From assembly GCA_963797095.1 (NCBI GenBank), contig CAWCNY010000002.1, positions 800,001-864,000 of the forward strand: a stretch of DNA of 64,000 nucleotides, written 5' to 3'. This stretch comes from an uncultured Chloroflexia bacterium. GTDB lineage: Bacteria; Chloroflexota; Chloroflexia; QHBQ01; JADMIH01. This document shows, piece after piece, positions 5,345 to 28,244 of the stretch. The notes under the pieces were generated by a model. It did no database searches. It was not told the DNA's origin and saw only the letters and a program-made list of their open reading frames with translations. A program made the translations under genes and the position numbers. The first letter of the stretch is position 1, and every line of letters starts with the position of its first letter.

Positions 5345-8300
5345 CTAGCGTATCTTATTGAAAGCCTCGATAGCCTCTTTGTGCCTGCCCATCTTCAGGA
5401 GAAGATCCCCTACTACCTGGTAGTACCGCGGCAGGTGCTTTGCCACCTCTTCAAAGTCGGCCAGGTCATCGCCGATAATGCTGAGCATAGTTTGTGAGGT
5501 GGTGCGCTTCCTTATGATTCTGCGGTATATGCGTAGGGCTGTATCGAAGTCCTCCGCCTGCACATAGGCAGAAGCCATCGCCATCTGGGCGCCTATGTTA
5601 TCCATATCCTGCCCACCCCACTCGCCCATATCCTCAAAGCCTTCGAGCGAAGGTAGAGGGCCGCTGGTCATCAACCCTCCATGTGAAGGAACCTTCGCAG
5701 CCCCTTCAGAATGTGGCACATGACTCGCAACCGGAACAGGCGTCTGCGTTACCCGGCCTTCGTTCCCCCTTCCGATGGTGCTACCTTGCATATCCTCACC
5801 CCCTTGCACTTGATCAGCTTTGGCGTTTGCGGTGTCGTAGTCGTATTCCCTCATATCGAATACGGCAGGCGTTTCCACCTCCTGTGGAACTGCTTCGGGC
5901 ACAGGTTGAGCTTTGGGTTGTTCGGCGCTTGGCTTCCCCTCTTGCTCCTCGGCAAAGGCCGCCCAGAGGCTGCGCGCCACTCGCGCTTTCACTTCCGGCT
6001 GTTCCACGGGCTGCTCAGGTTCACTTTCTACCGGTGCCGGCGCAGCCATTTCCCATATCTCCAGAGGTATCTCTGCCTGCTCTGCCATAGCCATTGGTGC
6101 GTACTCCTGATCGGGTTGCATGGCTTCAATCTCAGCTTCGTGCTCATAGATAAGGTAGCCTGTTGGCCTGTTGTCCTCTTCCAGCACGGCTTCTGCTAAC
6201 GACTCCACTGCCTCGTCAGAAGCAGGAGTGTCCGCCATCATAGCTTCTGCATTTTCCTTAGGTGCCTCAGGTGCCTTAGGTGTAGATACGCTCACAAAGA
6301 GTGAGGTATCCCCATCGGCTTCGCTCCAAACGTCATTCAGCGGCCTGGAACGCAGCATAATATCGTTTTCGTCGGGCACCGCCAGCTTGCCTGTGCCGTA
6401 ACTCCTCTGCATCTGATCTGCTTCCAGGTGCCCTGTGTGAGGCTCCTCTGTTTCCAGGTCAAGCTGGGCATAGTCGAAGGGTGCAACGTCCATACCGTCG
6501 ATTGCCAGGTCTATCTCGGTCGCCGGGCTGCTAACCTCGTCGACCATATCGTCCAAACTGGTATCAGTCAGATTGGTAGTAGCGCTCGCCATCCAACCGC
6601 GTGTTACGTGTGTATCCTTGATTGGAGCGGTATGCCTGGTCTCTTTCACTTCCGGCGATGCTGCCTCCCGCACAGCAGGCTCAACCTCCATAACCGGGGT
6701 TTCTGCCTCCATCACAGCAGGCTCAACCTCCATGACCGGGGCTACCGCTTCCATAACGGCGGGCTCGATCTCATCAGCGTAACCGGCTTCTTCACTCTGT
6801 TGTGCTACTTCCTCCATGCCATAGTCGCTCTCGGAAACCTCGGAAACCTCGGAAACCTCAACGGCATCAACAGGCTCAGGCTCCATGGCAGGCATTTCCA
6901 CAGGCATAGCAGGCTCAGGCTCCATGGCAGGCATTTCCACAGGCATAGCAGGCTCAGGCTCAATACTCAGCATATCCATACCTGTCACAGTCTCCATCTC
7001 CAGATCAGCCCCATGGGAAGCTACTTCCCACTCCTGTGGCTGCTCTTCCTCGGCCTGGACAACGGCTGCATCTTCTACATCCTCGTGAGATAGAATACCG
7101 GACGACATGACAACCTCTGTCTCCATATCGCCCATTACCGGCTCGTCGTAGATCATATTCGGCCCGGATTCCGGCTCAGGCTCAGGCTGGCCGCCCAGCA
7201 GGTCGGCTACAGCAGCCAGGTTCATCGTGATCGTCATCGGGTCGTGATCGTCTGGCATCAGACCGATCAACTCATCGGTATTGAAGCCCAGCGATTCCTC
7301 GACTTCATTGGCTGGTAGCAAAGAGAAATCGAACGGTTCGATTGGCGGCAACTGGCCGAAGTCTTCATCCGCATTCTCGTTGGACGCCTGCCCAGAGGCT
7401 GCGCCTGCATACTCAGAGGGCATGGGACGCGGCTCATTCAAGAACTCCTTTGTGCCCCAACCTCTCTGCGCTATATCCTGTATAAGCATCCCGGTTGGCG
7501 CTTCGTTTGCCGCTCCTTGTAGCCAGAACGGCAAATCTCCTGTGTTGTTGGCAACGTTTTGATCGGTCGGATCGGTCGCCTGCATCCCAATCGGGTCCCT
7601 CATCTCGGCGATAATTGACGCATCCAGGTCCTCGTAATCGCCCATTTCCTCGCTCCCGGCCACGGCTGCCTCGACATAAGGCGTAGGATCGAAAGCAGGT
7701 CCCATATCATTCTGGAGTTGGGCGATCTCTTCGGGGTTCGGAGCGGGTAGCGCCGACAATGGCGTGGCCGCACCCTGGTTGAACATGAAGCCCTCGAACT
7801 CTATTTCATCGCCCGTCAGATTGCCGCCCACGATCACCGGGTTCACACTCTTCAGAGCTTCGACTACCTCCGGATCGAGGTTGCTCGGTTCGTCTTGAGT
7901 CGTCTTTTGCCTGGTTGCTTCCAATTCAGCGATAGCTGCGCCCGCCGTCGCGGTGGTTGTGGTGGCCGTGGTGTCGGTAGCCTGTGGCGCTTCGCTCGTG
8001 GAAGCAGCCATCACGGGAGTTTCCTCCGCAGTTGGGGCTTCGGCCCCGGTCGCCTCATTTACATTTACTACAGGTTCCTGGACCTCATGTGCTCGGGCAG
8101 GACTGGCAGGCAGGTCCGGCTCCCACTGTCCCGCGAATTGCCCGGTGACCCATGAGAAATCTGGCCCCTGCTCAACTGCGGTTTCCTGTTCAACAGCCGG
8201 AGGAGCGCTCTCCTGCGCCATATGCGGCGCGTTATCGCCTGACCCCATTGTTCCGCCATCGACGGTCATTTCAGGGGTGTGGGCCTCTGCATGCTCGGCT

Positions 8301-18212: not shown

Positions 18213-20609
18213 TCATGCGCCCCGCGCCACGTATTCCTGTTCCACAGGCTCCTTGCCATCCCACTCGGTGATGTGCCCGCAACGGATGCACTTCACCTTC
18301 TGTGGGCCTTCCTGCTTCTGCGTGCGCCCTACCACCGTCATGAGGCCGCCGCATTGCGGGCAGGGTAGAGGCACGGGCCTATCCCACGTAGAGAATTCAC
18401 AGTCGGGGTAGCGGCTGCACGAGTAAAAGATACGTCCCTTCTTGCTTTTCTTTTCGATCAACTGCCCTTCCCCGCACTGCGGACATTCCACCCCTGTGCT
18501 CACCACGATGGGGCGCGTGTATCTACACTTGGGGAAGCCTGAGCACGCTATGAACGGCCCGAACCTGCTCTCCCGTATCACAAGCTCGTGCCCCGACAGG
18601 GGACATAACTCCCCTATCTTCTCAGGCTCCGGCCTGGCGACCTCGATCCGGCCAACGCTCGTTTCGGCTGCTGCCAGCGCCCGTTCGAGCGGCCCGTAGA
18701 ACTCCGATATCACAGGCTGCCAGCGGCGGTCGCCCGATGCCACGTCGTCCAACTCCTCTTCCATATTAGAGGTGAAGCCGATATCCACTATGTCAGGGAA
18801 GTACTCTACCAGCAGATCGTTCACCGCGATCCCCAGGTCTGTCGGCAGGAATTTCTTCTCCTCCTTCACCACGTAGCCCCGGTCCTGTATGGTCGATAGG
18901 ATAGGCGCGTATGTAGATGGTCTGCCGATCCCTTGCTCCTCCAGCGTCTTGACCAGCGTGGCCTCCGTATACCGGGGTGGCGGTTGGGTGAAGTGCTGCT
19001 CAGGCCACAGCTTGAGCAGATCGAGCAACTCCCCTTCGGTCAGAGGCGGTAGGGCTGCCTGGTCCATCTCGTCCTCGGCGTCTCCGGCGTCGTGCCCCTC
19101 TCTGTACACGGATATGAACCCGGCAAACTTGATAACCGATCCGGTTGCCCTGAACGTATAGGGCCTTCGTCCCTCAGATTTTCCATTCTGGCCCTTGGCT
19201 TGCCGCCCATCGCCCGATGCCCACAGTTCATCGTCTGCCTTGCCTGCCCCCACATCCACCGTTGTCTGGTCGAATATGGCGTTAGCCATCTGCGATGCGA
19301 TGAACCTCTGCCAGATCAGCTTGTACAGGCGATACTGGTCCGACGAAAGATACTGCTTGATCCCATCCGGGTCTCGTCTCGCCAGCGTGGGGCGGACCGC
19401 CTCGTGCGCCTCCTGTGCGCGGGGGTTCTTGCGTGCATACACCGGCGGCGACCCAGGCACGAACTCTTTTCCAAAGCGCTCGGCGATTACCTCGCGTGCC
19501 TCTGCCTGTGCAACGCTCGCCACGTTGGTCGAGTCGGTCCTCATATACGTGATGAGTCCCGTGGACCCTTCTACTCCGATCTCTATCCCTTCGTACAACT
19601 GCTGCGCGATCAACATCGTCTTGCGCGCCGCGAAGTTAAACTTGCGTGATGCCTCTTGTTGGAGAGTAGATGTCGTGAAAGGCGGCGAAGGTCTCCGTTG
19701 CGCCTCGCGTTTCTTGACGCTCTCCACTACATATTCTGCGCTCTTGAGCGCGGTCATCACCCCATCCGCGTCCTCAGCGTTCTTCAGTTCGGGCTTCTTG
19801 CCCCTGATCAGCGCCAGTAGCGAATGGAATAAATCCTTCTTCTTGCCCGATGGGCGCTTGCTCAGGTCGGCCTCTATGCTCCAGTACTCTTCCGGTATAA
19901 ACGCATCGATCTCGCGCTCGCGCTCGACCACGAGGCGCACAGCCACGCTCTGCACCCTGCCGGCCGATAGCCCCCGCCGTACCTTCTTCCACAGCAGCGG
20001 CGACAGTTTGTAGCCGACCAGCCTGTCGAGCACTCTCCGTGCCTGTTGTGCGTCTACCATCCGCATATCGATCTCTCGCGGGCTGGATACAGCGGCCTGC
20101 ACCGCGCCCGGCGTGATTTCGTGGAACTCCACCCTGTACACCGGCTGCCCGCCGTTGCCCGCGCCCGTCACCTCGCGCACGTGCCACGCGATAGCCTCGC
20201 CCTCGCGGTCGGGGTCCGTCGCCAGGTATACTGCCCGCGCCGTTTGCACCCTCCCCTTGAGGTCCTTGACCGTCTTGCTCTTGTCTCGGGGTACCACGTA
20301 TTGAGGCGCGAATCCGTGCTCAACATCCACCCCCAGAGTCGACTTGGGGAGGTCGCGCACGTGCCCCATGCTCGCTTCTACAACGAAGTTGCGCCCTAAA
20401 TACTTCTTGATCGTCCTGGCCTTGGCGGGTGACTCCACGATCACGAGGTTGGTGCTCCCCCGTGTAACAGGCCCATTCCCCGACGCCCGTGTGGACCTCG
20501 CCGTGGTCGAGCGCGTGGTCGTGCTTTTGCCTTTAGAAGCTGCTGTGCTTCTGCTTTTACTTGTTGTTGTGGCACCTGTCGTGCCGCTGGTTTTTCTGGT
20601 GGTTGCCAT
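18213..20609 (-). CDS. topA: DNA topoisomerase I
   Basis: LVIVESPAKA, LATDPDREGEAI, SAGRVQS, ITYMRTD (catalytic Tyr), GIGRPSTY; C-terminal C4 zinc fingers; S/T/K-rich N-terminal extension. Confidence 0.97.
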   Translation of the reverse strand: MATTRKTSGTTGATTTSKSRSTAASKGKSTTTRSTTARSTRASGNGPVTRGSTNLVIVESPAKARTIKKYLGRNFVVEASMGHVRDLPKSTLGVDVEHGFAPQYVVPRDKSKTVKDLKGRVQTARAVYLATDPDREGEAIAWHVREVTGAGNGGQPVYRVEFHEITPGAVQAAVSSPREIDMRMVDAQQARRVLDRLVGYKLSPLLWKKVRRGLSAGRVQSVAVRLVVEREREIDAFIPEEYWSIEADLSKRPSGKKKDLFHSLLALIRGKKPELKNAEDADGVMTALKSAEYVVESVKKREAQRRPSPPFTTSTLQQEASRKFNFAARKTMLIAQQLYEGIEIGVEGSTGLITYMRTDSTNVASVAQAEAREVIAERFGKEFVPGSPPVYARKNPRAQEAHEAVRPTLARRDPDGIKQYLSSDQYRLYKLIWQRFIASQMANAIFDQTTVDVGAGKADDELWASGDGRQAKGQNGKSEGRRPYTFRATGSVIKFAGFISVYREGHDAGDAEDEMDQAALPPLTEGELLDLLKLWPEQHFTQPPPRYTEATLVKTLEEQGIGRPSTYAPILSTIQDRGYVVKEEKKFLPTDLGIAVNDLLVEYFPDIVDIGFTSNMEEELDDVASGDRRWQPVISEFYGPLERALAAAETSVGRIEVARPEPEKIGELCPLSGHELVIRESRFGPFIACSGFPKCRYTRPIVVSTGVECPQCGEGQLIEKKSKKGRIFYSCSRYPDCEFSTWDRPVPLPCPQCGGLMTVVGRTQKQEGPQKVKCIRCGHITEWDGKEPVEQEYVARGA

Positions 20610-20663
20610 TCTTTCTTGTTGTTATCCTTATTCTGTTACAGCCCAAATTGATGTGCAAGGGTA

Positions 20664-20693
20664 ATCTTACGCACATTATTACACACCTGTCAA
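20664..20693 (-). promoter_or_regulatory. Putative topA promoter
   Basis: TTGACA-18 bp-TAAGAT on the minus strand. Confidence 0.55.
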
Positions 20694-21670
20694 GCCGCAA
20701 AGCATGCAATATCCGGAATTTGCATTCGTAATTGCAAACTCATAATCTGGTGCAGCTACGTTTGTTTTCACACCATTCTCGATGCCGTTGGCGAATTGGG
20801 TTAGGCAGCAGCCAGGGCGGCGAAGGGTGATATGCGGGTAGTCGCCCTCGGTTTCTCACTCCACCACGCCGATAGTCGCCCCACATTTATCGCTACCGCT
20901 GTCAGTACATGCTGTAGATGTGTCTTTCGCTCACCCATGTACCTCGCCCGCCGCATCTCATGCCCCACCACTGCCTCTGATAGCGTTCCTTCGATATCTG
21001 CTCGCCCAGCATACACCGCTTTGAACTCTTGCGTCTGCTGCCTCATGCGCGCTCGCTCCAGAGCCTCATGCTCCGCTTGCCGGTGCAGCGTCAACTCCCG
21101 AGCCCAACTCTTGCGTCTGGTACACCGCTTCCGCACCTCACACACCCTGCACTCTGCTGCGTTGAACTGCACTTGGATGGTTGGTTTGCCCCTCGACCCT
21201 ATCTCCTCGTGCCAGTGGCGGCTGATGCGCCCTTGCGGGCAAATCGCTCGCTTGCCCGCCCAATCGATTGTGAAGGTCGTGATGTCGAAGGCCTCCGGGT
21301 CTAGAGCTTGCCAGCTTACATCGGGGCGTACCGGCCCCACCACATTCACCCCATATTCCTGCTTACTGCTTACCAGCACTTCGGCGGACGCATAGGTCGT
21401 ATCCACCAGATGCTCCCCTGGCAACCTCCCATCCTCATCTCCATCTGCGGCTGCAGCCAGGTCCCGGTGAATAAGGGACAGTGCCATGCTGTCATCCTCG
21501 GTGGCTGGGCAAGTGTGCACATGGGTTATCAAGTGCGGCATATCTGGCTCGCATGTTTCGGTAAGATGCGCTTTGTAGCCCACCCATGATACGCTGCGCT
21601 TGCTGCTGTAGCGTGCCTCTGTATCATACGGGGAAGTGATCCGCTCCGCTGCCATTGGGGTCAGTGTATC

Positions 21671-21715
21671 CTGGCTATTCTGGCTATTCTGGCTATTCTG
21701 GCTATTCTGGCTATC
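21671..21715 (-). repeat. 9-bp tandem repeat x5 (SQN) in the transposase
   Basis: (CTGGCTATT)5 on the plus strand. Confidence 0.9.
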
Positions 21716-22452
21716 AGAAGTACCCGGTTCCTCGCCTAACTTGGTCCTGGTCTTGGGCTTGGCCTTGGCCGTGCCCGTATCTGTTGCTGTAACTACGCTG
21801 CTCGTATCCGTTCTTGTGCCTGCGCCTGCGCCTGTGGTCGTAATCGTTCGCAAATGTGCCTGCCCATCGGTGACGATATACTGCTGTTGCCACACCTGCC
21901 GCAGAACCTTCACGGCCTCCAAGTCACGCAGGTGGGGTGGAGCATCAGCAGCAGGGTGCTCAACTAAGGCAAGCAGGTGTAACCCATTCGCTCCTATCTG
22001 CTCGGCCAACACAGTGCGCTTGGCCTCCTCCTTGGGCAGGCGATATTCATCAATGAGGCGGCTGTAGCGGTCAAACCATTCGGGTGGAGTGTTGACACGC
22101 AGCCAACCGGGTGCCTCTTTGGCCAGGGCATTGAGGGCATATTGGAGGGTGCGTCCCACCAGTTCGACCCGGTTGAGGCTACGCACTGCCGCTAGAATGT
22201 GAGTGGAGTCGGTGCGCTGGCGACCTCTTGTCTTGAGTAGGCCACGCTCCTGTAAGTGCTCAAGCAGAGTATCAAGCAACAGGTGTTCAGCGTGGTTGGC
22301 GAGCAGGCGGTCGCGGAACTCGGAGAGTACGGAGAAATCGAAGCCCGGGTCGGTGAGTTGGAGGCCAAGGAGATACTTATCGAGTAAGGGAGAGCGGGTC
22401 GCCCCGCCTCCCTCCTCACAGAACCGGACAAGACCGTCGCCGATCATCCGGC

Positions 22453-25400
22453 TCAGGCTTCCACCGACTTTACTGCGGGTCTTCTACCAAATGTTGCGCG
22501 GTGGCAGACTTCGTGTAAGATGCTGAGGTTTTCCTCCTCATCTGTTCCACCGTCTGCTACCGATTGCTCATGGTGAATATGAATACGCTCTTCATTGAAC
22601 AAGTGCATTCGGCACAGGGGACATCGCCAGTGCTGCTTTGCGGCTACCCGGTATAGCTTTGACCCCACAGCAAAATAGCTTTTGCCATATCTTGTCTGCC
22701 GTGCCGCCCAGTATTCGCCCAGCGTTGGGTCGTCTGGGGATGCTGCGCCTTTGACTTTGATGTGGCGAGTAATTGGCGTCTGCCCTATCCGATACAGATA
22801 GGTCTTCGTCATCTTACCGTGCCGGTTCTTTGTCTTGGCGTAGAAGACCCAGTTGTTCCCGCCTACTCTCGTGAAGTAACGCGGAAGTACCCACCGTGGA
22901 CCCTTACCCGGGTGTCGCCGTCTCGCCCATCGGATAAGTAGTAACACTAACCGGTGGCTGAAGGTGGCGAACATCTTCTTGCTCACCCCATGCTTGTAGT
23001 AGTTCGCCCAACCCCTCAGAATCGGGTTTAGCACGTCAATCACGTCGTCGGGACCAACGTTCGGATGCGTGACCAGCCACTGCTTGATTTCACGCAGTTT
23101 GGTCTGCACCTTTTCCTTCTGGGGCTTGATTAGGCATTTCGTGCCGTAGCGACGGATGTTGAAACCCAAGAAGTCGAAACCATCTGCAATGTTGCGGATA
23201 TGGGTTTTCTCGGTGTTGAGTTCGAGTCCGCGCTCGGCCAGCCAGGCTACCACATGAGGTTGAATAGCCTCGATTTCCTCCCTCGTGGCTGCTGTTATGA
23301 TGAAGTGGAGTGGGCGGCCAGCGAGGTGCTGCTTGCGCAGCTCTTTTCTGTCCGCCTCTCCCCGAACCGGGCTTACGCCTTTCGGAGTACCCGGCTCTCC
23401 AGTGTTTTCCTTCTCGCGGCTTTCACGGCAGCAGTTTGAGTGTTGCGACCAGCATGAATGCTATCGTGGCACTCGCGACAGACCACCAGCGTCTTGCGCT
23501 TGCGAGCTGCCATCACCTGCATCCAGAAAGGCGGTTCTGCGCGTCCTTTGGTCCGTAGATCTTTGAGTGCTCGTACATGATGCACCTCGATGTTTTCTCG
23601 TGAACCACAAAGCTCACAAGCTTGTGCCAAGAGGCGTCGTTCGAGTTCCGCTCTCGGTCCGCTGATTTGTAGGGGCGCGTCGTTCAGTATTGCCTTGGAG
23701 TTGCGTGCGAGTGAAATACCGCCCCACCGCGCTATCAACGGTTTTCTTCCTTTATCGCCCTTATCACGATCGCCCTCATCACGCTCTACCCTGACTTCGA
23801 GGATTGCACGTGTTCCCTGATCTGTCCGTACTAAGGTGTGGTATCGCTTGTAGATAGATCGGACACTGATCTTGAGTTTTGAGGCCAGTGTCTGTGCCAG
23901 GGAGCGTTCCATTAGCCATTTCAGTTGGTTGAGTTTGTGAAGGTTGAAGGCCAGTCGATAGTATTCCACGAGACCCCGGTACTCCTGCTGGTATTGTGCC
24001 ACGATACTGAAGACAGCATCGTGTTCAAGTTCCGGTCGGTGGATCGGTTTGGCGTGGCGCAGATAGCGTTTGCATTTCACTTTCACAACCTCTGCTGGTA
24101 CTTTCAGTCCGATCCCGCCGTTGATGCTGCGGTGACCTCGGCGATCCAGCTTGTGGTCGTTATTGAGCACCACGATATCATAGCCCAGGAAATGCGCAGC
24201 TTTGGTCCGCGCATGGGTAATCAGCGTCTTTTCCTCAGAGAGTTCCAACTTGAGATCCTCTCGTAAGAAGTCCCGGATTGCAGACTTGATTTCCTGGGCT
24301 TCTTCTCGTGGGCCGCTGAAACCGAGTAGCCAATCATCGGCGTAACGACAGTAACGCAGGCGTCGGTAGTTGGGGTCGTGTGTGTCCAAGGAGGGGACCT
24401 GCTGCATCAGACGACGCATTTTGCAGGCCTCTTTCTTGTCACCATGTTCCTTCAATTGCCGAGCAAGCTGTTGTCGCCGTTGCCATTCAGGATTGAGTCT
24501 ACGACGGTTTCCGCACGTGTACCTGGGAAGCAGTGTCTTCTCGACAAACTGGTCCAACTTGTCCATGTAGATGTTCGAAAGAACGGGGCTGAGCACGGCA
24601 CCTTGTGGGCTTCCACTCAGGGTGCAGTGATAACGCCATTCTTCCAGGTATCCGGCTTGCAGGAGGCGTTCGATCAAGCGTAAGAAGCGATTGTCGAAGA
24701 TCTTCTCGCGTAGGATTGATATCAGGACTGTGTGGTCCAGAGTGTCGAAGCACGCTCTGATATCGCCTTCCACCCACCATTTTGTGCCTACCCACTTATG
24801 TTGGATCTCGCTTAGCGCGGTGTGACACCCACGTTGAGGGCGAAAGCCGTGTGAGGCCGGGCTGAATTGCGGTTCGTAATATGCCTGTAGGATAAGGCGT
24901 ATCACTTCTTGCAACAGCTTATCCGACCAAGAAGGGATTCCTAGCCCACGCCTTTTGGTCGAGTTTCTCTTGGCGATGTACACGCGTCGTACTGGCGTCC
25001 ATCGATATCGTTCCTGTCGTAGTGCACCGATGATGGCTTCGATCTTGGCCAGCGACATCCCATCCACAGTTTCGTCTGTTACGCCAGGTGTCATAGCCCC
25101 GTTATTGCGGTAGATATGCCCATAAGCGAGTAGATACAAGTCTGGGTTGAACAGTTGCCGGTACACGTCCTCCAATGGCAAGCCCTTCTTGCCGCGTTCA
25201 TGGATGATCCCCAGCACAGTTTCGGCGTTTCGCATCTCGCGTACCTCCCTGATTGGGTCTCACAACACCTGCCACCCTTCCCCATTGGCAACTTATCTTC
25301 TTTGCAAGGCATTGCCATGTTGCTATGTTGCTATGTTGCTATGTTGCCATGTAGACGGCTTTCCCGTCCTCGGAGTAATATGGTGGCTCCGTCGCCATGG

Positions 25401-26723
25401 GGCTCGCGCCCTGTAGGCGATCCCACATTCCCAAGGTTATGGACGTATCGAGCGTGACGTAGGTGCCTGTTCCGTCTCCTTGAGTCAGGTCGTTCCTGAC
25501 CGCCCATTGTGCGAAAGGTTCAGGCGGCGACGACTTAACCGCCCTATCACAATGGCTCCGCCAATAGATGCTATGGTCGGAGAATATTCGCTTGCATCGC
25601 TGGAGACTAAGGTTTGGGCAGTTTGGCTCTCACCATATCACGCGGGTCTTGCAGAACGATACCCTAAGCATCTTCAAGTATCTTCCGCTTCAGCAGCATG
25701 CTACTGTTCCCTTCAGCTTTCGCTTCCAGGTAAGCTGTTGACCCGGAGGTCTTGTCTTCCGTACCTCCCCTTTCTGCGAAAGGAATCCATTATCTTGGTT
25801 ATGTGGCGCACGTCGTCCGCAAAACGGATGTAACCGTAGCGTGGATTAGCCTGTTTATGTACACATCCCACCTGTTTGCCGCGCTTGTTGGTGTAAGTTC
25901 GCTGGTTAGTCCATTGACCAAGCCAGCGTTCCATACCGTCCAAGGCAATGTTGGCGAGTAATGGTGAGACGACAGAGCCTTGTGAGGTACCACTCTCAGT
26001 GGCGTGGAAGATCTCGGCCTCTACATAGCCTGCCTTCAGCCATGCTTCTATCCACTCGCGTCCCGGCGTTTGGCCAATGGCGTCGAGGATATATTCCTGA
26101 CTGATATTGTCGAACGCACCCCGGATATCGGCGTCGAGCACAAAGCTGTGTCCGTTTGCGCCCTTAAACCAGTTCCAGCATTGCACGATGGCATCATGAC
26201 AATTGCGGCCCGGACGAAAGCCATAGCTGTTCGGCTCGAATTGGGCCTCCCAACTTGGTTCCAGTGCGTTCTTGATAACTGCCTGCGCGATGCGGTCTTT
26301 GAGAGTTTGGATGCCGATCGGCCTTTGTTTGCCATTGGCCTTAGGTATATATATCCGCCGGGCTGGTTTGACCTGTCGTGGTTTGTACTCCGGCATCTCG
26401 CGGATCACTTGCGTCCTGGTTTTGGCGGTAAGAGCAGTCTGACCATCAATGCCAGCCGTTTTCTTGCCGTGATTGTCCATGGTCACTCTTCGCGTTGACA
26501 GTAGCAGGTTTGCGTAGCTGCGCATCATCAGCTTCTTCAGGCTGCGCACCTGATTCCACTGACCCGCTGCGGTCGCACGATAAATCCTTTGTCTCAGGTT
26601 CCTGACCCGATTGTTAACAATAGCCCAGTCAATAGCGTCCCAATCAATGGGAGTGCCTTGTTTGGGTATCTCGCTGAAAGCAGATCCTGGCGTTCCGATG
26701 TCAGAAGTGACTCTATCTTGCAC
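22453..26723 (-). CDS. ltrA: Outer intron RT/maturase/HNH protein, two exons (26723-25812 and 23304-22453), about 587 aa when spliced
   Basis: N-terminal WDAIDW...LRQRIYRA, SYGFRPGR, DADIRGAFDNI, IRFADD|FIIT, GFDFLGFNIR, LNPILRGWANYY; C-terminal CPLC...HIHH...LHEVCH. Confidence 0.92.
23305..25811 (-). mobile_element. Inner group II intron (IIA/mitochondrial-like type)
   Basis: 5' GTGCG at 25811. Domain V GAGCCGGGTACTCCGAAAGGCGTAAGCCCGGTTC. Ends ...ACTCCAC at 23305. Removing it restores the outer RT frame. Confidence 0.93.
23373..25235 (-). CDS. ltrA: Inner intron RT/maturase/HNH protein (intact, 620 aa)
   Basis: SHGFRP, EGDIRACFD, GSPQGAVLSP, RYADDW; maturase X domain; CELCG...EVHHV...VCRECHDSIH; GGGAGG RBS. 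Confidence 0.95.
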   Translation of the reverse strand: MRNAETVLGIIHERGKKGLPLEDVYRQLFNPDLYLLAYGHIYRNNGAMTPGVTDETVDGMSLAKIEAIIGALRQERYRWTPVRRVYIAKRNSTKRRGLGIPSWSDKLLQEVIRLILQAYYEPQFSPASHGFRPQRGCHTALSEIQHKWVGTKWWVEGDIRACFDTLDHTVLISILREKIFDNRFLRLIERLLQAGYLEEWRYHCTLSGSPQGAVLSPVLSNIYMDKLDQFVEKTLLPRYTCGNRRRLNPEWQRRQQLARQLKEHGDKKEACKMRRLMQQVPSLDTHDPNYRRLRYCRYADDWLLGFSGPREEAQEIKSAIRDFLREDLKLELSEEKTLITHARTKAAHFLGYDIVVLNNDHKLDRRGHRSINGGIGLKVPAEVVKVKCKRYLRHAKPIHRPELEHDAVFSIVAQYQQEYRGLVEYYRLAFNLHKLNQLKWLMERSLAQTLASKLKISVRSIYKRYHTLVRTDQGTRAILEVRVERDEGDRDKGDKGRKPLIARWGGISLARNSKAILNDAPLQISGPRAELERRLLAQACELCGSRENIEVHHVRALKDLRTKGRAEPPFWMQVMAARKRKTLVVCRECHDSIHAGRNTQTAAVKAARRKTLESRVLRKA

Positions 26724-27861
26724 GTCAGTTTGGTTCCTTCACATTAGTTCTATCGTCAGAAGCTAGCTGGAAGTCAGCCGCCTTTCGGCGTGGGGCAAAT
26801 CTTGAAAAGAACCCCTATCCCGCGCATTACTGCGGGCCTTCGCTTGCTCCAGCGTCTTTTACCCGATGAGTAATTCTGCCTTCCTTACGGTCGGCTTACT
26901 CCGCATGCCAAGTGGAGAACTCAACGGGCTTACCGTAGTTCCAGATGTTGAGATGCGTCCAGGGAAGGTCCTGCCTATGCTCCGGTGGGAGTGTGTCCTG
27001 TCGTCGAGCAGCGACTGGATTTGCTCGACCACCCACTTACCATTTTGGTGAGAGTGTCTCAGCCTTATTGCACTCTTGCCGAATCACGAAGCTTTAGATG
27101 GCAGTTCACTTGCGTTGACCTATCTGACTTCCCCTTGCGCATGACCAGGTTTAGGCTACCAGTCAGCGGCGCTTGCGTGGCCTGCATTCCACCAGGTTCA
27201 TTGCTTACTACTGGAGTGGCCGGGGTCAGAGACCCTTTTACGTGGGGACAGTGGGACAGAATCCACTGGGAGAGGGCTAACTCTCCACTCGATGGAGTTA
27301 CCTCCTTACATCTAGCTTAGCTACGTCGCACCCAGTCAATCCGGCTGCGAACAGCGTCGGCAGCCTGGCGGTCGGTGAGGTTCTCTATGAACTGCATGAT
27401 CAGCACAAGAGCCAGTCGGGTAGGGCAATGGGCAGGCTGGCCACGTTGGGGGAAGAGTTGAGCAAACAGGGGGTCGGAGAAGATGGACCGAGCTGCTCAT
27501 AGATGCGCATGTACAGGTTGCCTTTTGGAAAAGCAGCCCGCGCCACACGTTCAGTCTCTTCGGGGATCTGGTATACGATCAACGGGTGCAGGCACATGGC
27601 AAGTTCCTCCTCTCGCACTCTCTCAGCGGACGGGACAAGTGGACACAGCGTACAAGGAACGGGTGAATAGGTGTGACCACAATTGTACAGATGCAAGGAC
27701 GCTGTGAAAAGGCGAGTTCCCGGACTGCTCTTTGGGAGGACAAACCTTCTGGGCGACAATTCGCCAACGGCATCATTCTCCAAGTATTGAGAAGTCCACT
27801 TCTTGCCCTCAAGCCTCTTATAGCAAAACAATATTGCGTAAAAATTCACCCATTTGGGTAC

Positions 27862-27890
27862 TTGAAATACGAACATAGGTTCTATATACT
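27862..27890 (+). promoter_or_regulatory. Sigma70 promoter with an embedded LexA (SOS) box
   Basis: TTGAAA-17 bp-TATACT. The spacer contains CGAACATAGGTTCT (GAAC-N4-GTTC) at 27870-27883. Confidence 0.72.
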
Positions 27891-27935
27891 CTGTGTACAA
27901 GCGTAGTGCTGCCATCACAAAAGAGAGAATTTGCC

Positions 27936-28244
27936 ATGGGAAGGCGAAGAATCAAACGCATCAAATCTATATCGCCGCCAACAGAGATCGACATCGGGAT
28001 GCTGACCCTGCGGCAGATCGAGGTCCTGAGCCTCATTGCCCTCGGCAAAAGCAACAAAGAGATCGCCCAGGCCCTCTCCGTGACCCCCAGCACCGTCAAA
28101 TCTCACATCACCAGGCTGCTCCATATATGCGGCAAACGCACCCGCACCGACCTCGCTGTGCTCTGGACCGAGATAATGCACAAACCAGGCGACAGGGACC
28201 AAGCCTCCGAAGATAATGATTACGGGCCTTACGCCGTTGGCTAG
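27936..28244 (+). CDS. Stand-alone LuxR/GerE-type HTH protein
   Basis: LTLRQIEVLSLIALGKSNKEIAQALSVTPSTVKSHITRLL; no receiver domain. Confidence 0.85.
   Translation: MGRRRIKRIKSISPPTEIDIGMLTLRQIEVLSLIALGKSNKEIAQALSVTPSTVKSHITRLLHICGKRTRTDLAVLWTEIMHKPGDRDQASEDNDYGPYAVG

What the first reader, a model, noticed from the sequence alone, without database searches (positions are those of the whole stretch)
20781..27774. Three-level nested mobile element: IS1182 containing a group II intron containing a second group II intron
Seen: intact TIRs and a 6-bp target duplication bound 7 kb. Removing 23305-25811 restores the outer RT (RFADD|FIIT). Removing 22379-27331 then restores the transposase (SRIDW|KYLLG). 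Both insertions fall between codons and have GTGCG...AY ends with domains V and VI. Established: bacterial twintrons and introns within IS elements are known separately. Inference: expression needs ordered inside-out splicing, in which the inner maturase enables outer maturase synthesis, which then enables transposase mRNA. The whole unit could be mobilised in trans through the TIRs.
Basis: partly seen in the sequence, partly recalled or inferred. Interest (0 to 1): 0.8.

Follow-up and report, generated by a model that had tools for sequence, protein, structure and literature searches.

The report
Intron inside intron inside transposon
A 7-kb jumping gene in a soil-type bacterium has its transposase gene split by a self-splicing intron whose own gene is split by a second intron; the nesting is real, but the transposase also carries a frameshift, so this copy is probably crippled.

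Summary
An IS1182-family element (20781-27774, minus strand; 18-bp perfect inverted ends, 6-bp ATTCTC duplication) has its transposase split at ..RIDW|KYLL.. by a 4,953-nt group II intron (22379-27331). That intron's reverse transcriptase is split straight after its FADD (YADD-type) motif by a 2,507-nt LtrA-like group II intron (23305-25811). Rfam places domains V/VI exactly at both 3' ends. Pfam and NCBIfam profile positions run on across both junctions. Both introns carry exon-binding loops matching their flanks, each with one compensatory change in a relative. A metagenome DNA contig lacks exactly the 2,507 nt.

Additions:
- Transposase exon 1 is 1 nt shorter than a sister copy and frameshifted, so the cascade does not end in a full-length transposase as assembled.
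- The outer intron lineage homes to this motif in at least four different IS1182-type genes; 11 of 11 relatives with both exon parts are uninterrupted there.
- The inner lineage sits at the same RT motif of a second, different intron in this genome.

Splicing is untested because no RNA run was listed. This is a new variant of known kinds (bacterial twintrons, introns in IS elements). Interest is moderate.

The parts
20775..20780 (.). Target-site duplication, left copy (ATTCTC)
   Evidence: Read; identical hexamer at 27775-27780.
20781..20798 (-). Terminal inverted repeat at the transposase 3' side of the IS
   Evidence: 18 of 18 complementary to 27757-27774. In the genome this 18-mer occurs exactly only here, at 27757-27774 and at the C4 remnant.
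20801..22378 (-). Transposase exon 2 (525 codons plus stop)
   Evidence: NF033551 IS1182 family transposase 274.2 bits (cut-off 270). DDE_Tnp_1_6 E 6e-27. DUF772 from profile position 39.
22379..23304 (-). Outer group II intron, 3' segment: IEP exon 2 (22453-23304, RT end + GIIM maturase + HNH) and domains V/VI (22379-22456)
   Evidence: RF00029 47.3 bits ending at 22379. Pfam RVT_1 157-205, GIIM, HNH. TIGR04416 216-353.
23305..25811 (-). Inner group II intron (2,507 nt), IIA/LtrA-like. Its IEP is at 23373-25235 (620 aa, no internal stop), domains V/VI at 23305-23399, the EBS1 loop at 25529-25534 and delta at 25535
   Evidence: RF00029 54.5 bits. RVT_1 + Intron_maturas2 + AI2M-like HNH. LtrA 5g2x E 5.6e-121 over residues 24-593. 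EBS1 GTCGTC lies in a hairpin loop. X3 DNA contig skips exactly this stretch.
25812..27331 (-). Outer group II intron, 5' segment: ribozyme domains I-IVa (about 26724-27331) and IEP exon 1 (25812-26723). EBS1 is at 27013-27018 and EBS2 at 27078-27084
   Evidence: 5' GTGCGAC. RVT_N + RVT_1 1-155. 6me0_C (maturase reverse transcriptase) E 6.9e-61. EBS1 CCAGTC sits in an 8-bp stem with an 11-nt loop. EBS2/IBS2 compensatory change against L027.
27332..27597 (-). Transposase exon 1, 266 nt, frameshifted. The start codon frame covers 27490-27597; the DUF772 frame covers 27332-27484; one base is missing within 27485-27489 relative to the C4 copy
   Evidence: Alignment A1. The C4 copy translates to 89 aa in frame and matches NF033551 positions 6-86. 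The window piece 27332-27484 matches positions 35-86.
27757..27774 (-). Terminal inverted repeat at the transposase 5' side of the IS
   Evidence: Homology to the C4 remnant starts exactly at this end.
27775..27780 (.). Target-site duplication, right copy (ATTCTC)
   Evidence: Read.

Best explanation
This is a genuine three-tier stack of selfish elements, built by two site-specific retrohoming events.

Structure:
- The host element is an IS1182-family insertion sequence, 2,041 bp without the introns.
- A IIB-type group II intron (2,446 nt without its guest) entered the transposase gene. Its IEP resembles the solved maturase RT 6me0 and has RT, maturase and HNH parts.
- The entry site is the conserved ..RIDW|KY.. 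codons, which the intron recognises by EBS1/EBS2 pairing.
- A IIA-type, LtrA-like intron with its own intact 620-aa IEP then entered the outer intron's RT gene, directly after the FADD (YADD-type) motif. It recognises that site by EBS1 and delta pairing.

Expression (inferred): all three genes face the same way, so one transcript can carry them.
1. The inner IEP is translated and splices the inner intron.
2. That restores the 587-aa outer IEP ORF.
3. The outer IEP splices the outer intron.
4. That rejoins the transposase exons.

In this copy the rejoined transposase is still frameshifted in exon 1. The IS is therefore most likely non-autonomous, while the two introns look able to work.

What is shown: boundaries, family membership, target pairing, existence of the inner-free and intron-free forms, and repeated use of the same target motifs.
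What is inferred: splicing, its order, and present-day mobility.
For: Boundaries and family matches:
- Rfam domains V/VI end exactly at both 3' ends.
- Profile positions are continuous across both junctions.

Outer intron targeting:
- One search found one perfect 6-mer complement to the last six exon bases: CCAGTC at intron nt 314-319. About 0.15 is expected by chance in 620 nt. It lies in a hairpin loop.
- EBS2 ATTCGGC pairs with IBS2 GCCGGAT.
- In metagenome contig L027 the intron is 84% identical and lies in a different IS1182-type gene (55% aa) at the same codon. There a G-to-C change at exon position -10 is matched by T-to-G in EBS2.

Repeated use of the same site by the outer intron:
- C3:566597-573007 lies in an IS1182-type gene with 47% aa identity.
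- The C4 remnant is another instance.
- X3 contigs are about 96% identical and run up to 42 nt into a 5' exon.

Empty sites:
- In 11 of 11 relatives with both exon parts, the exons are contiguous (13 loci were given to the script).
- Two of them carry a perfect GCCGGATTGACTGG|A site.

Inner intron targeting:
- EBS1 GTCGTC lies in a 9-nt loop, and delta A pairs with T at +1.
- Inner B on C3:115831-118378 is 69% identical in nt. It sits at RYADD|FVVM of a different RT (42% aa).
- There the exon C-to-T change at -1 is matched by G-to-A in EBS1.
- The inner-free outer intron exists as DNA in X3.

Other support:
- The two inner IEPs give dN 0.22 and dS 1.89.
- Same-genus genomes G014 and G015 have the two flanks adjacent (2 of 11 loci had both flanks).
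- X1 contigs bridge 25811/25812 and 27331/27332. X1 may be the source sample, so this is not independent.
Against: - No RNA evidence: no RNA run was listed, so no splice junction has been seen.
- No Rfam model for domains I-IV matched at E<=0.1. The ribozyme cores were judged only from their 5' ends, EBS loops and domains V/VI.
- The transposase exon 1 frameshift means the cascade has no functional end product here. The site is not covered by any laid contig, so an assembly error cannot be excluded.
- The IS is single-copy. Its only sister is a remnant.
- The second twintron copy on C3 is 5'-truncated and hit by further IS elements, which fits decay rather than activity.
- Inner B's IEP has an in-frame TGA.
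- The inner intron's proposed EBS2 pairs only 5 of 8 positions in inner B.
- The outer intron was not found in 60 relatives by DNA. Only 2 distant relatives (49% and 44% aa) turned up in genome contigs.
Confidence: 0.85

Rival explanations
1. Fully working cascade. The 1-nt gap in exon 1 is an assembly error, and ordered splicing yields an active 614-aa IS1182 transposase, so the 7-kb unit can still transpose by itself.
For: - Exon 2 is open for 525 codons and scores above the NF033551 cut-off.
- The inverted ends are perfect and the duplication is intact, which suggests a recent insertion.
- Both IEP reading frames are intact.
- The frameshift site has no independent read cover.
- A same-genus relative has an uninterrupted 610-aa frame (G024).
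Against: - As assembled, exon 1 is 266 nt, against 267 nt in the C4 copy.
- The gap is not in a homopolymer run.
- The IS is single-copy in 6.0 Mb.
Confidence: 0.2
2. Inert fossil. All three layers are decaying relics that no longer splice or move, and the arrangement merely records past insertions.
For: - The transposase is frameshifted.
- The C3 copy is truncated and riddled with three other IS elements.
- The C4 copy is a 1.1-kb remnant.
- Inner B's IEP has a stop codon.
- According to the review PMC4424553 (passages read), most bacterial intron copies are truncated or inactivated.
Against: - In this copy both IEP frames are open (620 aa, and 304+283 aa).
- Domain V/VI scores are above gathering, and the EBS/IBS pairings are perfect.
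- The C2 and C3 copies differ by 1 of 2,507 nt (inner) and 4 of 2,434 nt compared (outer), so copying was recent.
Confidence: 0.2
3. Assembly chimera: the nesting is an artefact of collapsing repeated elements.
For: The genome holds several copies of each intron, and repeats invite misassembly.
Against: - The same inner-in-outer junctions occur in a second locus, in a different host gene.
- Both junctions are phase-0, with continuous profile positions.
- X1 contigs bridge two of the four junctions.
- X3 shows the exact inner-free form.
- The inverted ends and the duplication frame the whole element.
Confidence: 0.02

Closest known systems
RmInt1 in ISRm2011-2 of Sinorhizobium meliloti (PMC4238363, abstract and passages read)
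   Same: A bacterial group II intron whose natural home is the transposase gene of an insertion sequence. Splicing is needed for transposase expression. The intron is argued to limit spread of its host IS.
   Different: RmInt1 is described there as IIB3/class D, and the paper's reference list places ISRm2011-2 in the IS630-Tc1 family. [quoted passage not shown] Here the intron has an HNH domain, the host is IS1182 family, and the intron itself is interrupted by a second intron.
Thermosynechococcus elongatus twintrons TeI3 in TeI4 (PMC2882425, passages read)
   Same: [quoted passage not shown] The inner intron interrupts the outer IEP ORF.
   Different: There the inner intron is ORF-less and depends on the outer intron's IEP for splicing and mobility. 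It lies between the first two ATGs, so the IEP can be made without splicing. Here the inner intron is of another class (LtrA-like in a IIB-type host), carries its own IEP, and splits the RT right after the YADD-type motif, so no bypass is visible.
Trichodesmium erythraeum T.e.I7/T.e.I8 twintron (PMC4649490, abstract and passages read)
   Same: Two distantly related introns, each with its own IEP ORF, nested inside a protein-coding gene. Sequential splicing was shown in vivo.
   Different: The inner intron interrupts domain I of the host intron, not its IEP. The host gene is a conserved cellular gene, not a transposase. That paper called it the only bacterial twintron then known in a protein-coding gene.
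Methanosarcina acetivorans nested introns (Dai and Zimmerly 2003; known here only through the review PMC4424553 and the paper's title, since the paper itself is not held)
   Same: [quoted passage not shown]
   Different: [quoted passage not shown] Whether any insertion lies at the YADD codons could not be checked.

Membership tests
Group II intron (outer, 22379-27331) | Domain V with catalytic AGC and domain VI with bulged A at the 3' end | tested here: met
   RF00029 47.3 bits (gathering 40), model positions 1-77 of 77, ending at 22379. AGC and the bulged A are visible in the alignment.
Group II intron (outer, 22379-27331) | 5' GUGYG and 3' AY termini | tested here: met
   GTGCGAC at 27331 and ..CGAT at 22379.
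Group II intron (outer, 22379-27331) | EBS1/IBS1 and EBS2/IBS2 pairing with the 5' exon | tested here: met
   CCAGTC pairs with GACTGG and ATTCGGC with GCCGGAT. EBS1 lies in a hairpin loop. One compensatory change in L027.
Group II intron (outer, 22379-27331) | Intron-encoded RT/maturase in domain IV | tested here: met
   RVT_N, RVT_1, GIIM and HNH over two exons. TIGR04416 positions 3-215 plus 216-353.
Group II intron (outer, 22379-27331) | Six-domain ribozyme fold (domains I-IV) | tested here: inconclusive
   No Rfam D1-D4 family matched at E<=0.1. No full fold was attempted.
Group II intron, IIA / LtrA-like (inner, 23305-25811) | Domains V/VI, GUGYG..AY termini | tested here: met
   RF00029 54.5 bits ending at 23305. 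GTGCGCC at 25811 and ..CCAC at 23305.
Group II intron, IIA / LtrA-like (inner, 23305-25811) | LtrA-type IEP (RT, type II maturase, AI2M-like HNH) | tested here: met
   Pfam. 5g2x LtrA E 5.6e-121 over nearly full length.
Group II intron, IIA / LtrA-like (inner, 23305-25811) | EBS1/IBS1 with delta-delta' next to EBS1 (the IIA mode; this feature is recalled, not taken from a call) | tested here: met
   GTCGTC pairs with GACGAC, and A at nt 277 with T at +1. The loop context is shown. Compensatory change at -1 in inner B.
Group II intron, IIA / LtrA-like (inner, 23305-25811) | EBS2/IBS2 | tested here: inconclusive
   The candidate at nt 159-166 pairs 8 of 8 positions here (two G-U) but only 5 of 8 in inner B.
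Twintron | One group II intron wholly inside another, removable to restore the outer one | tested here: met
   Profile continuity across the junction. The inner-free DNA form is seen in X3.
Twintron | Sequential splicing in vivo | not testable with these tools
   No RNA run listed.
IS1182 family insertion sequence | IS1182-type DDE transposase | tested here: met
   NF033551 274.2 bits for exon 2 alone (cut-off 270), and exon 1 covers positions 35-86. DDE_Tnp_1_6 and DUF772.
IS1182 family insertion sequence | Terminal inverted repeats and target duplication | tested here: met
   18-bp perfect inverted repeats and 6-bp ATTCTC.
IS1182 family insertion sequence | Uninterrupted transposase frame after intron removal (autonomy) | tested here: not met
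   Exon 1 is frameshifted relative to the C4 copy. This bears on activity, not on family membership.

The most novel reading that the evidence does not exclude
This genome hosts a lineage of LtrA-like introns that live as hyperparasites of other mobile elements.

Evidence for the lineage:
- Its members home into the codons of catalytic motifs: the YADD motif of two different group II RTs, and an rve-type LDWHSR|YIV motif of an IS3-like transposase.
- In the window the result is an obligatory three-step dependency. The inner maturase licenses the outer RT/maturase, which licenses the transposase. The innermost parasite therefore gates the mobility of both hosts.

Evidence that twintrons also move as single units:
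- A second full inner-plus-outer copy lies in a different IS1182 gene.
- A 5'-truncated copy of the second twintron type has a new 3' flank.
Probability: 0.35. Interest if true: 0.65.

Novelty: new variant of a known kind. Interest (0 to 1): 0.5.

Why it matters
Bacterial twintrons are rare. In 2015 only one was known inside a protein-coding gene (PMC4649490), and automated intron pipelines miss the outer member of a nest (PMC8919778, passage read).

This locus offers three things:
- A compact natural test bed for hierarchical splicing control. The outer intron's own enzyme cannot be made until a foreign intron of another class has been removed.
- Two clean examples of introns that recognise conserved catalytic-motif codons of other mobile elements as safe, ever-renewed landing sites. 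This bears on how selfish elements partition a genome.
- Two ready-made, sequence-defined homing sites with natural empty and filled alleles, usable for mobility assays.

It does not change what is known about how group II introns work.

Tried and rejected
- RNA evidence: no RNA holder was listed for the stretch, so expression and splicing remain untested.
- Read cover: the laid contigs leave 20600-21337 and 27488-27950 without cover, so the frameshift site could not be checked.
- Rfam: nothing beyond domains V/VI at E<=0.1.
- Outer intron in relatives:
  - The DNA search covered 60 relatives. 10 of the 60 (11 of 61 with the window's genome) had matches.
  - All were short (at most 280 nt, 65-93% identity) and lay within parts of the query. 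None was a full copy.
- Genome contigs: 2 loci at 49% and 44% aa, not followed up.
- Pattern for the YADD|inner-intron junction in 400 genomes of the phylum: 2 hits with 2 mismatches each. Both were rejected because no RT lies upstream.
- Inner-intron EBS2 candidate: not upheld by inner B.
- Programmed frameshift in exon 1: rejected. There is no slippery heptamer at the site, and the sister copy is simply one base longer.
- Near-matches to the inverted end at C2:887251 and C4:229079 (2 mismatches each): treated as chance, because the reversed control gave 1 hit.
- Promoter scan: 4 sites against 4.1 expected. A 9-of-12 site at 27710-27682 (minus strand) upstream of the transposase start is noted only.
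- Unit transfer against separate homing for the C2 and C3 copies: 1 of 2,507 nt (inner) against 4 of 2,434 nt (outer) differences do not discriminate.
- The first dN/dS run used a 78-aa truncated frame and was replaced.
- Dai and Zimmerly 2003 is not held. Supplements of the papers were not consulted and may list insertion sites that bear on the novelty claim.
- The search of earlier findings returned nothing.


Full report
**1. What is there**

The window is G000:C2:800001-864000. Everything in the finding lies on the minus strand.

*Ends of the element.* The 6,994-bp stretch 20781-27774 is bounded by a perfect 18-bp inverted repeat, GATGCCGTTGGCGAATTG. It is flanked by the direct hexamer ATTCTC at 20775-20780 and 27775-27780.

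*Intron boundaries.* Rfam's group II domain V/VI model matches twice in the 8.5 kb searched, and nothing else matches at E<=0.1:
- 23305-23399, 54.5 bits;
- 22379-22456, 47.3 bits (gathering score 40).

The 5' boundaries read GTGCGCC (25811) and GTGCGAC (27331).

*Sizes.* The outer intron is 4,953 nt. The inner intron is 2,507 nt. The outer intron alone is 2,446 nt. The IS without introns is 2,041 bp.

**2. The coding parts fit across both junctions**

*Outer IEP.*
- Exon 1 (25812-26723, 304 aa): RVT_N, RVT_1 positions 1-155 of 205, and TIGR04416 positions 3-215.
- Exon 2 (22456-23304, 283 aa): RVT_1 157-205, GIIM, HNH, and TIGR04416 216-353.
- The break falls directly after ..IRFADD, the YADD-type motif.

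*Transposase.*
- Exon 1 ends at DUF772 position 38 and NF033551 position 86.
- Exon 2 starts at DUF772 position 39. Alone it reaches 274.2 bits on the IS1182 equivalog (cut-off 270).

*Inner IEP.*
- The frame is 620 aa with no internal stop, carrying RVT_1, Intron_maturas2 and an AI2M-like HNH.
- It aligns to LtrA (5g2x) over residues 24-593 at E 5.6e-121.

*Class of the outer IEP.* Its exon 1 is closest to chain 6me0_C, a maturase reverse transcriptase, at E 6.9e-61. That this chain is the T.el4h IIB intron protein is my recollection, not a tool result.

**3. Target recognition**

*Outer intron.*
- One search found one perfect 6-mer complement to the last six exon bases: CCAGTC at intron nt 314-319. 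About 0.15 would be expected by chance in 620 nt.
- It lies in the 11-nt loop of an 8-bp hairpin.
- ATTCGGC (nt 248-254) pairs with exon positions -14 to -8.
- Metagenome contig L027 carries an 84%-identical intron, starting at its nt 1. It lies behind a different IS1182-type exon 1 (55% aa) that ends at the same ..RIDW codon.
- In L027 the exon has C instead of G at -10, and EBS2 has G instead of T. A U.G pair becomes G-C.

*Inner intron.*
- GTCGTC (nt 278-283) lies in a 9-nt hairpin loop and pairs with GACGAC. The A before it pairs with the first base of the 3' exon.
- A second member of this lineage, inner B (C3:115831-118378, 69% nt), lies in a different group II RT (42% aa to the outer one) at ..RYADD|FVVM...
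- There the exon reads GATGAT and EBS1 reads ATCGTC. Position -1 has changed on both sides, and position -4 forms a G.U pair.
- The proposed inner EBS2 is not upheld by inner B.

**4. Empty and filled alleles**

*Inner-free outer intron.* A DNA contig of run X3 (sediment metagenome, 817 nt, 35 differences in 813 aligned nt) joins 23304 to 25812. So the outer intron exists without the inner one.

*Intron-free IS1182 genes.* 13 loci were given to the script. 11 had both exon parts, and in all 11 the parts are contiguous. Two same-genus loci (L062, L063) carry a perfect GCCGGATTGACTGG|A site.

*Insert-free chromosomal site.* In G014 and G015 the two flanks of the composite lie next to each other. 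Only 2 of 11 loci had both flanks, and the match is at synteny level, not base-precise.

*Junction support.* X1 contigs bridge 25811/25812 with no differences and 27331/27332 with one difference. X1 may be the sample the window was assembled from, so this is not independent.

**5. Other copies in the genome**

*Second twintron, C3:566597-573007.*
- The inner intron differs at 1 of 2,507 nt and the outer at 4 of 2,434 compared.
- It sits in a different IS1182-type gene (47% aa), again before ..KYLL.
- It lacks the first 27 nt and the 5' exon.
- It abuts an rve-type (IS3-like) transposase gene.
- It carries a 1,470-bp DDE_Tnp_1 element in the outer IEP.
- Its host gene holds an ISAzo13-type element.

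*Remnant on C4.* It keeps the IS end, exon 1 and outer-intron nt 1-666, and then breaks next to a glycosyltransferase gene.

*The frameshift.* The C4 exon 1 is in frame (89 aa, NF033551 positions 6-86). The window's exon 1 is one base shorter within 27485-27489. As a result the start-codon frame and the DUF772 frame are out of register.

*Possible co-conversion.* The last 105 nt before the intron are identical between C2 and C4, while the coding sequence upstream is 138 of 162 identical. The pattern looks like co-conversion of the 5' exon during homing, or later gene conversion. This is inference.

**6. How it most likely works**

All three genes share one orientation, so a single transcript from the IS can carry them. 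A weak promoter-like site at 27710-27682 is no better than chance.

The inferred order of events:
1. The inner IEP is translated and splices its intron.
2. The outer IEP frame is thereby restored and translated.
3. The outer intron is spliced.
4. The transposase exons are joined.

The inner intron sits in the ORF loop of domain IV. The outer ribozyme should therefore fold with it in place. Once outer IEP exists, the order need not be strict. An outer lariat that still holds the inner intron could retrohome as a unit.

Two observations fit unit movement but do not prove it:
- the second full twintron, in another IS1182 gene;
- a 5'-truncated copy of twintron B (C1:492589-495757, 99.94% over 3,172 nt) with a different 3' flank.

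The end product in this copy is frameshifted, so the IS is probably non-autonomous. No cognate transposase was found elsewhere in the genome.

**7. Comparison with what is known**

- Introns that live in IS transposase genes: RmInt1 in ISRm2011-2 (PMC4238363).
- Bacterial twintrons: T. elongatus, where introns are said to have evolved to insert at a conserved site in an IS or in another intron (PMC2882425), and Trichodesmium, where sequential splicing was shown (PMC4649490).
- Nests of up to five introns: M. acetivorans (review PMC4424553).

Three features were not found in the papers I searched (covering the held library only). These searches paired 'group II intron' with twintron, transposase or insertion sequence, IS1182, YADD, or M. 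acetivorans nesting, so none addresses the cross-class point directly.
- A cross-class twintron (LtrA-like inside a IIB-type intron) in which the guest splits the host RT after YADD and no bypass is visible.
- An intron lineage dedicated to the IS1182 ..DW|KY.. site.
- The two stacked inside one bounded IS, with coding continuity at every level.

I file this as a new variant of known kinds.

**8. Verdict**

The structure is real and was formed by retrohoming. The splicing cascade is a sound inference but is untested. In this copy the transposase at the end of the cascade is broken as assembled.

Noticed in passing
G000 whole genome; pairs at C3:118378/119358, C1:494777/495757, C6:301502/300490, C1:29601/28312, C3:572081/573007 and the window: 22 RF00029 matches (19 at or above gathering) in 6.0 Mb. 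Six same-strand pairs lie about 1-1.3 kb apart, the spacing expected for an intron nested in another intron's ORF. The genome is unusually rich in nested introns.
   Followed up: partly
G000:C3:114107-119358 (L034) and C1:492589-495757 (L035): A second twintron type. Inner B sits at RYADD|FVVM of a different outer RT. Its IEP has one in-frame TGA where inner A has W. A 5'-truncated, 99.94%-identical copy on C1 has a different 3' flank, as expected if the whole twintron inserted and reverse transcription stopped early.
   Followed up: partly
G000:C6:301502-302231 (minus strand); empty homolog at C6:794048-795345: An ORF-less relative of the inner intron (same 5' end type, its own domains V/VI) sits in an IS3-like transposase at ..LDWHSR|YIVSWE... 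A second ORF-less intron follows about 1 kb downstream.
   Followed up: partly
G000:C1:28312-32677 (minus strand): A third RT-in-RT nest at a different RT position (after ..VLDADIASCFD). The predicted 5' end of the guest is not a canonical GUGYG.
   Followed up: no
window 27332-27436 and L005 (C4) 6658-6762: The last 105 nt of transposase exon 1 are identical between the C2 and C4 copies, while upstream coding sequence is 85% identical. This looks like a co-conversion tract next to the intron.
   Followed up: partly
window 20609-20780: The composite lies only 171 nt upstream of the start of the topoisomerase I gene (18213-20609), on the same strand. It sits inside what relatives have as a short intergenic region next to a LuxR-type gene, so it may affect topA transcription.
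   Followed up: no
window 21667-21714 and 25312-25351: A 9-nt repeat in 5 copies encodes SQN repeats in the transposase linker. An 8-nt repeat in about 4.5 copies lies in the inner intron just upstream of its ORF.
   Followed up: no
L004 (C3:560001-579000): A pile-up of mobile elements around the second twintron: an rve-type transposase, two DDE_Tnp_1 genes and an ISAzo13-type transposase, the last inside the host IS1182 gene.
   Followed up: partly
L031 (metagenome contig, 1-129): A 93%-identical piece of the outer IEP region (nt 1094-1222 of the 5' segment) stops abruptly and runs on into unrelated sequence. This may be another insertion or a truncation.
   Followed up: no
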